NCBI RefSeq assembly: GCF_009914755.1
Contig: NC_060927.1
Direction: 5' to 3' (one strand)
DNA length: 64,000 nucleotides
Source: the human T2T-CHM13v2.0 reference genome, Homo sapiens
Part shown: in pieces, positions 6,201 through 55,504 of the stretch
How positions within the stretch are numbered: the stretch's first letter is position 1
How the letters are laid out: each line of letters starts with the position of its first letter
Program-made: the position numbers and the translations under genes
The notes under the pieces: model-generated
Told to the model about the DNA's origin: nothing
Seen by the model: only the letters and a program-made list of their open reading frames with translations
Databases searched by the model: none

Positions 6201-8892
6201 TAGGTTTTCTAGTTTTGCATAAAGGTGTTGATAGTAGCATTGAATGACATTTTATATTTCAGTGGTGTCAGTTGTAATATCTCCTGTTTCATTTCTTAGT
6301 GAGGTTATTTGGATTTTCTCTCTTTTTTTCTTGGTTAACCTTGCTAATGGTCTGTCAATTTTATTTATCTTTTCAAAGAACCAGCTTTTTGTTTCATGTA
6401 TCTTTTGTAATTTTTTTGTTTCTATTTCACTTAGTTCTGCTTTGATCTAGGCTATTTCCTTTCTTCCCCTGGGTTTGGGTTTAGTTTGTTCTTGTTTCTC
6501 TAGTTCCTTGAGGTGTGACTTTAGATTGTCTGTTTGTGCTCCTTTAGACTTTTTGATGTAAGAGTTTAGGGCTATGAACTTTTTTTTTAGCATTGCCTTT
6601 TCTGTGTCCCAGAGGTTTTGATAAGCTGTGTCATTATTGTCATTCAGTTTGATGAATTTTTAAATTTCCATCTCTATTTCATTTTTGACCTAATGCTCAT
6701 TCAGGAGCAGTTTATTTAAATACCATGTATTTGCATGGTTTTGAAGGATCTTTTTGGAGTTGATTTCCAGTTTTATTCCACTGTGGTCTGAGACAGTGCT
6801 TGATATAATTTCAATTTTCTTAAATTTATTGAAGCTTGTTTTATGGCCTATCATATGATCTATCTTGGAGAAAGTTCCATGCGCTCTTGAATACAATGTG
6901 TATTCTGTGATTGTTGTATGAAATGTTCTGTATATATTTGTTAAGTCCATTTGTTCCAAGGTATAGTATAAATCCATTGTATCTTTGTTGACTTTCTTTC
7001 TTGATGACCCATCTAATGCTGTCAGTGGAGTATTGAAGTCCCCCACTATTATTATATTGCTGTCTATCTCATTTCTTAGGTCTACTAGTAATTGTTTTAT
7101 AAATTTGGAACCTCCAGTGTTAGGTGCATTTATGTTTAGGATTGTGATATTTTCCTGTTGGACAAGGCCTTTTACCATTATATCCAGTCTCTCTTTGTCT
7201 CTTTTAACCACTGTTGCTTTAAAGTTTGTATATAAGAATAGCTACCCCTGTTTGCTTTTGGTGTCCATTTGCATGAAATGTCTTTTTCCACCCCTTTAAG
7301 TTTATATGAGTCCTTATATGTTAGGTGAGTCTCCTGAAGGCAGCAGAGTGTTGATTGATGAGTTCTTATCCATTCTGCGGTTCTGTATATTTTAAGTGGA
7401 GCTTTTATGCTATTTACAGTCAATGTTAGTATTGAAATGTGAGGTACCATTGCTTTCATCGTGCTCTCTGTTGCCTGTGTACTTTTGGTTTTTGTTTTTG
7501 CTTTTTTAACTTCTATTTTTGTTTTATAGATCTTGTGTGATTTATGCTTTAAAGAGTTTCTGTTTGGATGTGTTTCCAGGATTTGTTTCAAGATTTAGAG
7601 TTCCTTTTAGCAGTTTTGTAGGGGTGACTTGCTAATAGCGAATTCTCTCAGCATTTGTTTGTCTGAAAATGACTGTATCTTACCTTCATATATGATGCTT
7701 AGTTTCACTCATACAAAATTCTTGACTGATAATTTTTTTGTCTGAGGAGGCTGAAGATAGGTACCCAAGCTCTTCTCGACTGTAGGGTTTCTGCTGAGAA
7801 ATCCGCTGTTAATCTAACTGGTTTTCCTTTGTAAGTTACCTGGTGCTTCTGTCCCACAGCTCTTAAGATTCTTTCCTTCATCTTGACTTTGGATAACCTG
7901 ATGACAATGTGCCTAGGTGAAGGTCTTTTTGTCATGTATTTCCCAGATAGTCTTTGTGCTTCTTGTATTAGGATGTCTAGGTCTTTAGCAAGGCCAGGGA
8001 AGTTTTCCTTGATTATTCCCCCAAATATGTTTTCCAGGCTTTTAGAATTCTCTTCTTCCTCAGGAACACCAATTATTCTTAGGTTTGGTCATTTACCATA
8101 ATCCCAGATGCCTTGGAGGCTTTGTTCATATTTTCTTATTCCTTTTTATTTGTCTTTGTTGGATTGGTTTAACTCGAAGGCCTTTTTTTCGAGCTCTGAA
8201 TTTCTTTGTTCTACTTGTTCAATTCTATTGCTGAGACTTTCCAGAGCATTTCACATTTGTAAAAGCGTGTTCACAGTTTTCTGAAATTTTGATCATTTTT
8301 TCATTAAGCTATCTGTATCCACAAATATTTCTCACTTCACTTCTTGTATCATGTTTTAGATTTCCTTACATTGGGCTTCACCTTTCTCTGGTTCCTCCCT
8401 GATTAGCTTAATAATTAACCTCCTGAATTCTTTTTTCAGGTAAATCAAGGATTTCTTCTTAGTTTGGACCAATTGCTGGTGAACTAGTGTGATTTTGGGG
8501 GGTGCTGAAGAGCCTTGTTTTGACATATTACCAGGGTTGGTTTTCTGGTTCCTTCTCATTTGGGTAGGCTCCGTCAGAGAGAAGGTCTGAGGATGAAGGC
8601 TGTGGTTCAGATTCTTTTGTCCCATGGGGTGTTCCCTTGATGTAGTACTCTCCCCCTTTTTCTATAGATGTGGCTTCCTGCGAGCCAAACTGCATTGATT
8701 GTTGTCTCTCTTCTGGGTGTAGCCACCCAGTGAGTCTGTCCAGCTCCGGTCTAGTACTGGGGTTGTCTGCACAGAGTCCTGTAATGTGAACCTCCCATGG
8801 ATCTCTCGGCCACGGATTCCAGCGCCTGTTCTGGTGGATGTAGAAGAGGGTGCAATGGGCTCCGTGAGGGTCCTAAGCTCTGGTGGTTTAAT
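3290..8892 (-). mobile_element. Near full-length L1PB (L1PB1-like), degenerate, truncated within the 5'UTR
   Basis: L1PB1-type 3' end (ccataagttattggggtacaggtgg); minus-strand ORF2 fragments (EN 6690-7211, RT 5320-5535 FADN, 4729-5055) and ORF1 fragments (7705-7935; MRRNQKTNPGNM ~8559); (TA/CA)n expansion at 3655-3810. Confidence 0.93.
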
Positions 8893-9869
8893 TGACATTT
8901 ATTAAAGAAGGTATTTTAGCAAGAAGAATAAATGATTCCGTTAACTTAACTTATGATAGACATCTGATCTTTCCCTATCTTCCTTAAAACTCAGAATATG
9001 TTCTTGAGAAATTGACTCAGTCAAGTTTGTCAAATAGTGTTTGTCAGTCTCACTCTGTTTCTCTTTTCTGTGCTACACGCTACCAGATAAGTAAGTTCCT
9101 ATGGGAAACTAAAAATAAGTGTTCTTGCATTGGCCTTGGTAAAAAGGAAATTTTTATTCCAGAAGATTCAGTGATTCCTGATTCTTCCAGAACACAATGC
9201 CTGTAATTCTATCTACATTTTATCCATGTAGATGAAATGTTTTGACTTTATTAAAGTAGAAATGAACAGAGCCTTGAATGTGGGAAGGATAACACATTAT
9301 ATTCCTGCTCAAACGGATCCAGAAGCAGAATCAGAAGAAAACTGAAGTTAGATTTTCCTGATAAATAAGATATTCTAAATTTATCAGGATTTAGCACTTC
9401 TGACACAGAATGAGAAAGTAAAAAACAAATATTCCAATAAAAATAAAAAAATTTGGGAAAAAACATGAATTTAATTTAAAAACTTGAATTTAATTTTTAA
9501 AAACTTAAAAATTTGAATATTTTTAATACAAGCATTTTCCTGTTGTAGAAATAGTTTTAATTGTAGTTACAACAAGGTACTAGATTGAAATTGAATTTTA
9601 AGGCATGTGGAAAGAACCGTGTTGTAGCCTCTGTACATATTCTTCCTTGTCTTTTACAATCACTAGAGCTTGGTTTCTACAATTTAAGTTTTGATTTTTG
9701 ACAGAACACAAATTCCTCTAGATAGGTTATTTTGAGACTTTATCAATCACATACTTTTAATTTAGTCACATCTGGTTCTAAAGACTTTCTTATTCTCTTG
9801 ACACCTTTCCAACACTCATTCTCATTTCTTCCTTCCACTGCCAAAATCACCATATTTTCTCACTGCCTT

Positions 9870-52436: not shown

Positions 52437-54054
52437 ACAATTGACTTTTGTACTTTTGTTTCATCTAAGAGAAATAGCTACCTTCATTTTCCCCACTTTC
52501 GTTCCTCACACTCATGTCCCATATTCTACACAATCTCTAAATGCTAACATTTTCTCTACTTTTCAAGACCAAATGACAATGTCACTCACTCCACAAACTA
52601 TCCAACTCATAAAGCTAGATGTTCTCTCTCCTCCCTCAGCATCCCGCCTCTCTTGATTTTTAAACTTCTTATGACAGGCATATTTTCCATTTCCTATAGT
52701 TATTTGTGAATGCAGTAGGCCTCCAACTATCCTAGAATATTCACAAATAGGGAATCTGTATCTGTTTTGCTTGTGCTCTCCTTTTGTATTGTACACTCAG
52801 TTACTTGTATAGAAAAATTACACACCAAACACTTTTATTGTAGCAAGATAAATTGACAATAGATGTGTTCATCCTTTAAACATTTTAAGGATCCGTATAA
52901 GTGCAGCTACATAAGCTCAATACTGTTTGTTATGAATGCTCATTGGTATAATTAGGCCCTCTAAGAAAAATAAATGAAATCGTAGTAACATTTTCATAAA
53001 AAAAGAAACAATTACAAGGGATATGATCCTCAAAGGACTGTCTAATTGTGCCTATTTCTATTTCTTTTACTCTTCATGCCGAGAAGGAGTTTTTAAAATT
53101 TCAACTCAGTCTTATTCTTTAGAGGAAAGATACTAGAACAAAATCCACTTAAACTCTCAGTTGCTATCGAGTTTAAAATCATTTCATTTAAATATACTTA
53201 GAATTTCACATAGCAAACACATTAAGAGGATTATGTTTTCCTTCAAAGTAAGCTCATCTCCTTCAGGGCAGAACCAATAATCAACTACCATGGCATTTGA
53301 GCTTACTAAATTTAGACCTTATTAAGGAGGTCCATTTAATTTTTTTGAAGATTTACTTTCTGTGAGGAAATCACATATGCCATTTTATGTCATTTGGGAA
53401 TTATAGCATCAAGAATACCATTGCAGACTAACAGAGAAAACTTTCCATTTCTTTTTTTTTTCAAACTGTGAAGCACATAGTCCAAGTTGTATTACACTCC
53501 TTTGATGTAAAACTTTAATACTTGCATTTGGGATTCTGATGATGTGTCAGGAAACTTTTTTACTCTCAGTAACCAACGTTGGTCAAGAATAATGGGGAGA
53601 GTTATTTAGACAACATTCCTTACCGAAGTCTGGCCCAGGGAGACATAAATGTAAGAGGATATAGGACAGAGTTTGCCGTTGATTTCGTGGAACCAGCAGA
53701 GAATTCCACATGGTTTTAGAAAGAGAAATTATCTTTATCAATTTAAACCAAGTACAGTACATTCATATCCAAATAATATTTTTTGCCAAGCAAAGTTGAA
53801 TATTGTAATCAAATCAATAGAATATATCAAACTAACCAAAAAAGACCTTTGAACATTTGAATAATAACCTCCAGGATAAATTAATATTTTGGAGAAAACT
53901 TGATATTGTATTTTAAACCTAAGCAATATTTTCCAAAGGAATGTAAAATCATTTTATTTATTTGATTTCATCTTTTTTTTTTTTTTGCAGTTGCAAGATT
54001 TAATAGAGTGAAAACAGAGCTCCCATACAAAGGGAGGGGACCCAAAGGGGGTTG

Positions 54055-54299
54055 CCGTTGCCGGCTTAAATGCCTGGGTTTATATCCAGATCCTTGTCCC
54101 TCCCGCTGTGCTCTCAGGCAATAGATTGGCTATTTCTTTACCTCCTGTTTTTGCCTAATTAGCATTTTAGTGAGCTCTCTGATTGGTTGGGTGTGAGCTA
54201 AGTTGCAAGCCCCCTGTTTAAAGGTGAATGCGGTCACCTTCCCAGCTAGGCTTAGGGATTCTTAGAGTGCCTAGGAAATCCAGCTAGTCCCGTCTCTCA
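54055..54299 (-). promoter_or_regulatory. LTR17 U3 promoter region
   Basis: Starts TGAGAGAC at 54299; CCAAT boxes; GATATAAA at 54079-54086; ATTAAA poly(A) signal downstream at 53999-54004. Confidence 0.8.
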
Positions 54300-54357
54300 G
54301 TCCCCCCCGTCAACAGGAAAACCCAAGTGCTGTTGGGGAGGTTCACCGACGACCGCT

Positions 54358-54564
54358 CTAACTGCTTCTTGCTGAACTGGGGTGTAGTAGAGGTTGTGCA
54401 GTTGAGATTTCCTCAGGAGGGGCGCCTTTGATGTCATTAACATCAGAGCATGGGCTAGCAGGCCAGTCCAGGGGTCCGCGGTAGATCTTAGTCATAGACT
54501 GCATCTGGGGCTCCGTTGGAAGAATGATTGGTAGTTTTGCAGCTTTGATTCTGGAAGAGACAAA
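54358..54564 (-). pseudogene. HERV-W env cytoplasmic-tail remnant, 68 open codons
   Basis: FVSSRIKAAKLPIILPTEPQMQSMTKIYRGPLDWPASPCSDVNDIKGAPPEEISTAQPLLHPSSARSS*, homologous to the syncytin-1/MSRV env C-terminus. Confidence 0.9.
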
Positions 54565-54574
54565 TGCTTTGGAG

Positions 54575-54592
54575 GTCCCTTCGTGGTCACCA
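54575..54592 (-). other. Primer-binding site TGGTGACCACGAAGGGAC
   Basis: 18-mer beginning TGG, 3 nt after the U5 end (taaca). Confidence 0.85.
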
Positions 54593-55504
54593 AAATGTTA
54601 CTGGAGGTCCTTGTTCACAGAGCTTCCAAGATGGTGGCGAGCCGCTTCCAAGATGGTGGCAAGCCTCCTGTTCTCTGGCCTGGGCTTCTTGGCCTCACAG
54701 ATTCCAAGGAATGGAATCTTGGGCCATGCAGTGAGTGTTATAGCTCTATTAGAAGCTGTGGGTCACGGAAGAGAACTGTGGAACCCAGTGACTAGTGTTC
54801 AGCTTGATTAAGAGGAACCCGGGCACTTTGCCATGCAGGAACAATGGCAAGCTTTTAGCCCAATCGGGAGTGGCAATGGGCGCCTCACTGGATCAGGAGC
54901 ACAGCAGACACCCTGCCGGATCCAGAGGGGTGGAAGTCAGCAGCAAGTCTGCTGCGGCGCGTCCGCCACGGCGGCAAACAGCAATGGTGGACTGCAAGCG
55001 ACAGCTCAGCTCCAGCAGTAACAAACATGGATCAGAAGAGTGCAGTTGCAAGATTTAATAGAGTGAAATAGAGTGAAAATGGAGCTCTCACACAAAGGGA
55101 GGGGATCCAAAGGGGTTTGCCCTATTTGATTTCATTTTATGCATTTGTCATTGATTATTTTGTGCAGAAAAGTGATGTAACACAGTGGACTTTGAATTTA
55201 GAATACCTGAGTGTACTTGTTTCTCCACTAATTGTGTGCACTTTGGGCAAGCTTCTATGACTCTATGCACCTCTGTTTTCACTCTGAAGCCTTCTATAAA
55301 TATTGCTTTTTTTTTTAGGCAATTCTTATTAACCTACTTTTATGTGTTTGTCAAATTATTAGAAAATAAGATGAATCTCAACTCTTGAGATTTTAAAAAC
55401 AGTACTGAGATGCATCAGTTTATCTTTGTGTAGTATGAAAATGTTATAACCTAAATTGTCTCCCCACAAAATTCATGGTAAAGTCCTAAGCCTGAATTTT
55501 GCTA

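What the first reader, a model, noticed from the sequence alone, without database searches (positions are those of the whole stretch)
53959..55135. L1-retroposed copy of a fully spliced HERV-W RNA (leader joined to env tail)
Seen: the minus strand reads R-U5-PBS-ctccaaagca|tttgtctcttccagaatc-env tail-PPT-U3-R-A14 with a 13-bp TSD. All of gag, pol and most of env are absent. Established: HERV-W forms L1-mediated processed pseudogenes and a short fully spliced transcript has been described. From recalled consensus, the junction at 54565/54564 falls at the leader donor (aaagcg|GTGAGT) and an AG in env (ttaag|tttgtc). Inference: this is a germline fossil of that splice form rather than a random deletion. 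The extra 5' G may derive from the cap.
Basis: partly seen in the sequence, partly recalled or inferred. Interest (0 to 1): 0.75.

Follow-up and report, generated by a model that had tools for sequence, protein, structure and literature searches.

The report
Retroposed copy of spliced HERV-W RNA
This 1.15-kb stretch is an ancient DNA copy, made by the LINE-1 machinery, of a short spliced RNA of the endogenous retrovirus HERV-W; it is one of at least seven such copies in the human genome, a neat but unsurprising fossil.

Summary
On the minus strand, 55135-53959 reads: 13-bp target-site duplication, one untemplated G, R-U5-PBS, 10 nt of leader, then directly the last 207 nt of env, PPT, U3-R and A14. 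In unspliced HERV-W copies of the same genome the leader continues with GTGAGT, and the env piece is preceded by a pyrimidine-rich tract ending in AG. The missing gag-pol-env segment is therefore a GT..AG intron, with at most 1 nt of microhomology.

Six further loci (chr14, chr8, chr10, chr12, chr5, chr2) carry the same 1.15-kb form. Each starts at R and has its own poly(A) tail and its own 9-17-bp duplication. Two of them use the same donor but an AG 14 nt further downstream. Trees of both halves place the window copy with the chr8 and chr14 copies and a 7.8-kb chr2 provirus. They do not support a single origin for all seven.

A local deletion or one deleted master copy is thus very unlikely; recurrent splicing followed by LINE-1 retroposition fits. 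The kind is known (HERV-W pre-gag-spliced pseudogenes, a rec-like HML-2 pseudogene, a short ERVWE1 transcript). This isoform class was not found described in the papers I could read.

The parts
55123..55135 (-). 5' copy of the target-site duplication (13 bp; 16 bp with one mismatch if extended to 55138)
   Evidence: family D4
55122..55122 (-). One untemplated G before the first templated base of R. U3-bearing copies have C or T at this position.
55041..55121 (-). 5' R, from the transcription start to the poly(A) site sequence. No U3 lies upstream.
   Evidence: (families D1, D2)
54596..55040 (-). U5, including a 22-nt tandem duplication at 54622-54665
   Evidence: (family D3)
54575..54592 (-). 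Primer-binding site, 18 nt
   Evidence: position after U5 read directly from the sequence
54565..54574 (-). Last 10 nt of exon 1 (leader), ending at the 5' splice site. The last base is A here and G (a CpG) in other copies.
54358..54564 (-). Start of exon 2: the last 68 codons of env (cytoplasmic tail) plus the stop codon. It begins right after the acceptor AG of unspliced copies.
54300..54357 (-). Untranslated spacer and G-rich polypurine tract (54310-54300)
54057..54299 (-). U3 of the 3' LTR
   Evidence: (U3 matched in proviral loci)
53987..54056 (-). 3' R with the ATTAAA signal. It lacks one 10-nt repeat unit that the 5' R has.
53973..53986 (-). Poly(A) tail, 14 A
53959..53971 (-). 3' copy of the target-site duplication

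Best explanation
A HERV-W provirus was transcribed in the primate germ line or early embryo, from the start of R in its 5' LTR. It was not ERVWE1, because the env tail here keeps the 12 nt that the chr7 copy lacks.

The RNA was spliced from the leader 5' splice site, 10 nt after the PBS, to a 3' splice site inside the part of env that codes for the cytoplasmic tail. This removed pre-gag, gag, pol and nearly all of env. The RNA was polyadenylated at the end of the 3' R.

LINE-1 proteins then copied this roughly 1.14-kb mRNA into an A-rich target by target-primed reverse transcription. That left a full-length cDNA with one extra 5' G, an A14 tail and a 13-bp duplication.

Shown: the anatomy, the GT..AG edges, the recurrence at independent loci, and the lack of a single origin.

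Inferred: the cell type, the LINE-1 enzyme, the cap origin of the G, and an age of tens of millions of years.

The copy has no promoter at its 5' end and no start codon in frame across the junction, so it is most likely inert.
For: - Anatomy, duplication and poly(A) tail.
- Donor: the 31 unspliced rows continue past the junction point into intron-like sequence, most reading GTGAGT or a one-base variant by eye.
- Acceptor: AG precedes the env piece in 23 of 25 unspliced copies, after a pyrimidine-rich tract with a branch-site-like CTTTAAC 13 nt upstream.
- Intron content: Gag_p30 (E 1.4e-10) and RVT_1 (E 3.4e-21) lie between the two sites in provirus L051.
- Recurrence: six more loci carry the whole form. 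All start at R, and each has its own flanks, poly(A) tail and 9-17-bp duplication.
- Second acceptor: two of the six use a downstream CAG that is itself present in 23 of 25 unspliced copies.
- 5'-half tree: one clade of all 7 is rejected (AU p 1.9e-05), as is one clade of the 5 copies with the same acceptor (p 6.9e-04).
- Grouping: both half-trees put the window copy with the chr8 and chr14 copies and the chr2 provirus L007/L051 (96/88 and 95/88).
- Exon lengths of 557 + 578 nt plus a tail fit a short transcript of the size reported for ERVWE1. PMC2853125 says 1.5 kb (passage read); 1.3 kb is my recollection of Blond 1999, which I could not read.
Against: - The 3'-half tree rejects a single origin only weakly: AU p 0.052 for all 7 copies and 0.039 for the 5.
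- The bootstraps of both trees had not settled.
- The trees use only 31 of about 128 leader-bearing candidates and 24 of about 440 tail-bearing candidates, so the true source provirus may be unsampled.
- I could not show that the junction equals the one in the published placental cDNA, because Blond 1999 is not held.
- The window copy has about twice the private divergence of its two nearest sisters, which is unexplained.
Confidence: 0.92

Rival explanations
1. All short copies, or at least the window copy and its chr8 and chr14 sisters, descend from one internally deleted master element that was transcribed repeatedly. The window copy would then record a deletion carried by its source, or a provirus made from a spliced RNA, rather than a splice of a full-length RNA.
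For: The window, chr8 and chr14 copies form one supported group in both half-trees. The 3'-half tree does not clearly reject one clade for all 7 (p 0.052). HERV-W does have inherited recurrent deletions: 22 of 25 copies share the env deletion.
Against: - None of the 7 copies has a U3 at its 5' end.
- The nearest sampled relative of the window group is a 7.8-kb provirus that still holds the intron.
- The 5' half rejects one clade (p 1.9e-05).
- Two copies use another AG with the same donor.
- The edges are exactly GT and AG, unlike the 3' edge of the inherited env deletion.
Confidence: 0.05
2. A full-length processed pseudogene was inserted here and later lost its interior by a DNA deletion at this locus.
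For: Large deletions are common in old HERV-W copies (PMC5016936, section 6 read).
Against: The identical junction occurs at four other loci with different flanks. The edges are GT..AG with at most 1 nt of microhomology.
Confidence: 0.01
3. The LINE-1 reverse transcriptase jumped from the env tail to the leader on an unspliced RNA while making the cDNA.
For: Template switching by LINE-1 reverse transcriptase is known from my own recollection; no call tested it.
Against: A jump would not land on GT and AG. It would also not recur at the same base in 5 copies, nor at a second AG in 2 copies.
Confidence: 0.01

Closest known systems
HERV-W processed pseudogenes made by LINE-1 (Pavlicek 2002, as summarised in Grandi 2016, PMC5016936)
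   Same: 5' end at R without U3, 3' end at R without U5, poly(A) tail, short duplication at an A-rich target.
   Different: The usual members copy the unspliced RNA (with or without inherited deletions) and run to several kb. This one copies a spliced RNA of 1.14 kb.
HERV-W processed pseudogenes that lack pre-gag (Grandi 2020, PMC6995185, section 10 read)
   Same: Same family and the same leader donor. GT..AG edges, found only in processed pseudogenes, and read by the authors as splicing. I saw three such loci (L015, L062, L072).
   Different: There the acceptor lies just before gag and only about 2 kb is removed. Here the acceptor lies in the env tail, and gag, pol and most of env are removed.
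Short, largely spliced ERVWE1 transcript of placenta (Blond 1999, as cited in PMC2853125 and PMC3203578; the original could not be read)
   Same: A short HERV-W RNA made with the leader donor and a distal acceptor. The size fits the 557 + 578 nt seen here.
   Different: I could not check that its junction is the same base. The window copy does not derive from ERVWE1, because it keeps the 12 nt that the chr7 copy lacks.
Retroposed rec-like spliced HERV-K(HML-2) mRNA at 2q32.1 (Schmitt 2013, PMC3590776, passages read)
   Same: A spliced subgenomic ERV mRNA copied by LINE-1, with a poly(A) tail and a 13-nt duplication.
   Different: A different virus family (a betaretrovirus-like one with an accessory gene). 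That is a single locus with a predicted 136-aa reading frame. Here there are seven loci and no reading frame with a start codon across the junction.

Membership tests
HERV-W processed pseudogene (criteria as listed in PMC5016936, section 5) | 5' LTR reduced to R-U5 (no U3) | tested here: met
   The element starts at the R start, right after the duplication and one G. U3-bearing copies have U3 sequence there.
HERV-W processed pseudogene (criteria as listed in PMC5016936, section 5) | 3' LTR reduced to U3-R (no U5) | tested here: met
   R ends at the site used in all 7 copies and is followed by A14, not U5.
HERV-W processed pseudogene (criteria as listed in PMC5016936, section 5) | Poly(A) tail | tested here: met
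   14 A at 53986-53973, 12 nt after the ATTAAA signal.
HERV-W processed pseudogene (criteria as listed in PMC5016936, section 5) | Target-site duplication of 5-15 bp at a TT/AAAA-like site | tested here: met
   13 bp exact. If extended to 16 bp with one mismatch, the site reads AT/AAAA.
HERV-W (LTR17/HERV17) as a family | Sequence similarity of LTR, leader and env tail to catalogued HERV-W loci | tested here: met
   78-96% identity to dozens of loci. These include a chr7:93.71 Mb copy with a tail 12 nt shorter. They also include loci that fit catalogue entries 2p12a, 14q12, 2q31.2b and 5q14.3a by band and size. No RepeatMasker or Dfam run was possible.
Copy of a spliced RNA | Missing segment bounded by GT and AG in unspliced relatives | tested here: met
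   Donor: the 31 unspliced rows continue past the junction into intron-like sequence, most reading GTGAGT or a one-base variant by eye. Acceptor AG is present in 23 of 25 copies.
Copy of a spliced RNA | Same junction at independent insertions, not explained by one deleted ancestor | tested here: met
   5 loci share this junction and 2 use an alternative AG, each with its own duplication. A single clade is rejected on the 5' half and only borderline on the 3' half.
Copy of a spliced RNA | Junction identical to one seen in real transcripts | not testable with these tools
   No transcript data are held. Blond 1999 and Mallet 2004 are not held.

The most novel reading that the evidence does not exclude
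The leader-to-env-tail splice was a regular third mRNA of replicating ERV-W, made by several proviral lineages 20-35 million years ago. It was abundant or well suited enough in the germ line to be retroposed at least seven times. No copy of the env mRNA was seen among 43 sampled leader-bearing loci. Part of what HERV-W catalogues call 'huge recurrent deletions' would then be a fossil transcriptome, and it would record competing use of two AGs 14 nt apart.
Probability: 0.3. Interest if true: 0.45.

Novelty: new member of a known kind. Interest (0 to 1): 0.3.

Why it matters
It shows that the short splice form of HERV-W is old. Proviruses other than the syncytin-1 locus made it, and it left at least seven germ-line copies.

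Practically, these seven loci carry the exon-exon junction in genomic DNA. RT-PCR or short-read evidence for 'spliced HERV-W RNA' across this junction can therefore be mimicked by DNA contamination or mis-mapping.

It also suggests re-reading some catalogued 'deleted' HERV-W loci as spliced copies. For retrovirology at large it is a modest addition to a known phenomenon.

Tried and rejected
- **Reading frames.** I looked for a reading frame created by the junction. In all 7 copies the env frame is open for only 33 nt or less upstream of the junction, with no start codon in exon 1. The two acceptors would need different exon-1 frames. A fusion protein is therefore rejected.
- **Pfam on the env tail.** The 67-aa env tail gave no Pfam family.
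- **chr22 match.** The chr22 match to the junction word (2 mismatches) has no other similarity to the element, so it is chance.
- **Further short copies.** A search with the second junction form found the same seven loci and no more among the 40 scored of 439 candidates.
- **Literature.** Searches found no description of this isoform as a pseudogene. The passages matching 'splic' in PMC5016936 (2 occurrences), PMC5537654 (2 occurrences) and PMC5775608 (1 occurrence) do not concern spliced pseudogenes.
- **Papers not held.** Pavlicek 2002, Costas 2002, Blond 1999 and Mallet 2004 are not held and may contain it.
- **Supplements.** The supplement of Grandi 2016 with human coordinates is not held.
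- **ERVWE1 splice sites.** They could not be read.

Full report
**What is there**

Read on the minus strand, window 55135-53959 is a compact retroelement. Its parts, in order:

- A 13-bp direct repeat (55135-55123, repeated at 53971-53959).
- One G at 55122.
- HERV-W R (55121-55041) and U5 (55040-54596).
- An 18-nt primer-binding site (54592-54575).
- Ten more leader bases ending at 54565.
- From 54564, with nothing in between, the last 68 codons and the stop codon of env (to 54358).
- A short spacer with a G-rich polypurine tract.
- U3 (54299-54057) and R (54056-53987) with an ATTAAA signal.
- Fourteen A (53986-53973).

There is no U3 at the 5' end and no U5 at the 3' end.

**Is the missing interior an intron?**

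I took real copies from the same genome rather than a recalled consensus.

- A search with 141 nt across the junction and one with the leader alone (40 scored of 128 candidates), plus ten fetched places, gave 42 distinct leader-bearing loci besides the window.
- I dropped two 5'-truncated rows (L065, L069) before classifying. That left 41 rows, the window included: 31 unspliced, 5 with this junction, 2 with a second junction and 3 without pre-gag.
- In the 31 unspliced rows the leader runs on past the junction point into intron-like sequence. By eye most read GTGAGT or a one-base variant. A few have a small deletion there, and L014 has a foreign insert.
- On the other side, 25 unspliced copies were examined. 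In 23 the env piece is preceded by AG, behind a pyrimidine-rich tract and a CTTTAAC that fits the branch-site pattern.
- The exon ends share at most one base with the intron ends, so there is no deletion-type microhomology.
- In the 7.8-kb provirus L051 (chr2:75.88 Mb) the two sites lie about 6 kb apart. The stretch between them encodes Gag_p30 and RVT_1 domains.
- On the reference numbering quoted in PMC5016936 (env 7720-9348), my arithmetic puts the acceptor near 9142. The full intron would then be near 8.3 kb.

**Recurrence**

Six more loci hold the whole 1.15-kb form:

| Locus | Place | Acceptor |
|---|---|---|
| L002 | chr14:30.73 Mb | same junction as the window |
| L003 | chr8:124.54 Mb | same junction as the window |
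| L004 | chr10:98.17 Mb | same junction as the window |
| L005 | chr12:32.15 Mb | same junction as the window |
| L008 | chr5:88.66 Mb | CAG 14 nt downstream, same donor |
| L012 | chr2:178.95 Mb | CAG 14 nt downstream, same donor |

- That downstream CAG is itself present in 23 of 25 unspliced copies.
- All seven copies start at R. Each has unrelated flanks, its own poly(A) tail and its own duplication of 9-17 bp at an A-rich site.
- An exhaustive scan with the 23-nt junction word found the five loci of the first type at 2 mismatches or fewer, plus one unrelated chr22 site.
- A search with the second junction found no further copy among the 40 scored of 439 candidates.
- Seven is therefore a lower bound.

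**One origin or several?**

- A maximum-likelihood tree of the R-U5-leader half has 41 rows, after the two truncated rows were dropped. It scatters the short copies among long ones.
- On that tree the best topology with all seven held together is 76 log-likelihood units worse (AU p 1.9e-05). With the five of the first type held together it is 48 units worse (p 6.9e-04).
- The tree of the env-tail-U3-R half has 31 rows (L091 dropped as truncated, and the 14 nt that differ by splice form left out). It is poorly resolved and rejects the same groupings only weakly (p 0.052 and 0.039).
- Both trees had unsettled bootstraps.
- Both agree on one supported group: the window copy, L003, L002 and the chr2 provirus (L007 and L051 are its two ends), at 96/88 and 95/88.
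- So at least two source lineages made the first splice, and the second acceptor is a separate event by definition.
- The window copy's nearest sampled relative is a provirus that still holds the intron. By band and size this provirus fits catalogue entry 2p12a; that is an inference.

**Mechanism**

The simplest account has four steps:

1. Transcription of a HERV-W provirus from the R start.
2. Splicing from the leader donor to one of two competing AGs in the env tail. The branch-like CTTTAAC lies 13 nt before the first AG and 27 nt before the second.
3. Polyadenylation in R.
4. Target-primed reverse transcription by LINE-1.

The anatomy and the splice-site evidence are shown. The enzyme, the cell type and the branch site are inferred.

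The extra G at 55122 is not templated: U3-bearing copies have C or T at that position in 10 of 12. At least one such G is present in 20 of 29 R-start copies. That count comes after I corrected the window row, which I had entered one base out of register. It fits copying of the cap, which I know from recollection to be described for LINE-1 products.

No reading frame with a start codon crosses the junction in any copy, and the copy lacks a 5' promoter. I take it to be inert.

**Age**

- Without CpG sites, the window copy differs from L003 and L002 by K2P 0.055 and 0.064. Those two differ from each other by 0.033.
- This gives about 0.043 private change for the window copy, against 0.012 and 0.021 for the other two.
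- At the 0.13 % per million years used in PMC5016936, that is roughly 30 million years for the window copy.
- The excess over its sisters is unexplained. It could reflect an older insertion or a faster-evolving pericentromeric site.
- Catalogue entries that fit L012, L008 and L002 by band and size (2q31.2b, 5q14.3a, 14q12) are present from chimpanzee to gibbon and absent in rhesus (PMC5775608, supplement 1).

**Comparison with print**

- PMC5016936 (sections 5, 6 and 11 read) defines HERV-W processed pseudogenes by the four hallmarks met here. It speaks of 'huge and recurrent deletions' without mention of splicing.
- PMC6995185 (section 10 and discussion passages read) reports pseudogenes that lack pre-gag with GT..AG edges and reads them as spliced. 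I saw three of these (L015, L062, L072).
- PMC3590776 (passages read) reports one retroposed rec-like HML-2 mRNA.
- PMC2853125 and PMC3203578 (passages read) cite Blond 1999 for a short, largely spliced ERVWE1 RNA, and for two 5' and three 3' splice signals.
- None of my searches found the leader-to-env-tail form described as a pseudogene class.
- Pavlicek 2002, Costas 2002, Blond 1999 and Mallet 2004 could not be read and may bear on this.
- The only 3p11 entry in the 2018 locus table is 5.5 kb long, so the window copy seems not to be catalogued there. This is an inference without human coordinates.

**Open points**

- I could not inspect the splice sites of ERVWE1 itself.
- No transcript data or primate genomes were available.

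**Verdict**

It is a further splice isoform within a known phenomenon. It is useful for annotation and for reading HERV-W expression data, but not surprising to a specialist.

Noticed in passing
L015 (chr6:145.31 Mb), L062 (chr4:113.59 Mb), L072 (chr3:181.86 Mb): Three R-start HERV-W copies join the same leader donor directly to the gag start, so the pre-gag intron is removed. This is the class described in PMC6995185. None of the 43 sampled leader-bearing loci shows a leader-to-env-start junction of the env mRNA type.
   Followed up: partly
window 55122; 5' ends of 29 R-start loci: An untemplated G before the first base of R is the rule in full-length HERV-W pseudogenes. It occurs in 20 of 29 copies, while U3-bearing copies have C or T at that position in 10 of 12.
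   Followed up: partly
L021-L025, L051, L079-L098, just upstream of the acceptor: 22 of 25 unspliced copies carry the known large env deletion. Its 3' edge lies 27 nt before the acceptor. Intact copies (L086, L092, L094) read ...TTTGGA before that edge, so this recurrent deletion is not bounded by AG and looks inherited rather than spliced.
   Followed up: partly
window 54622-54665 and the matching U5 region of L002-L012: A 22-nt unit in U5 varies in copy number among the short copies: one in L002, two in the window, L003 and L008, and three in L004, L005 and L012.
   Followed up: no
window 54002-54013 versus 55058-55078: The 3' R of the window copy has one copy of a 10-nt unit that is doubled in its 5' R. 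Both R regions carry it doubled in most other short copies.
   Followed up: no
L014 (chr7:65.17 Mb), just after the leader donor: An Alu-like sequence interrupts this copy two to four bases into the intron.
   Followed up: no
G000 chr7:93710213-93710341: This is the only copy whose env tail is 12 nt shorter than the query. The place and the signature fit the syncytin-1 locus; the signature is recalled from memory. Its splice sites could not be read.
   Followed up: no
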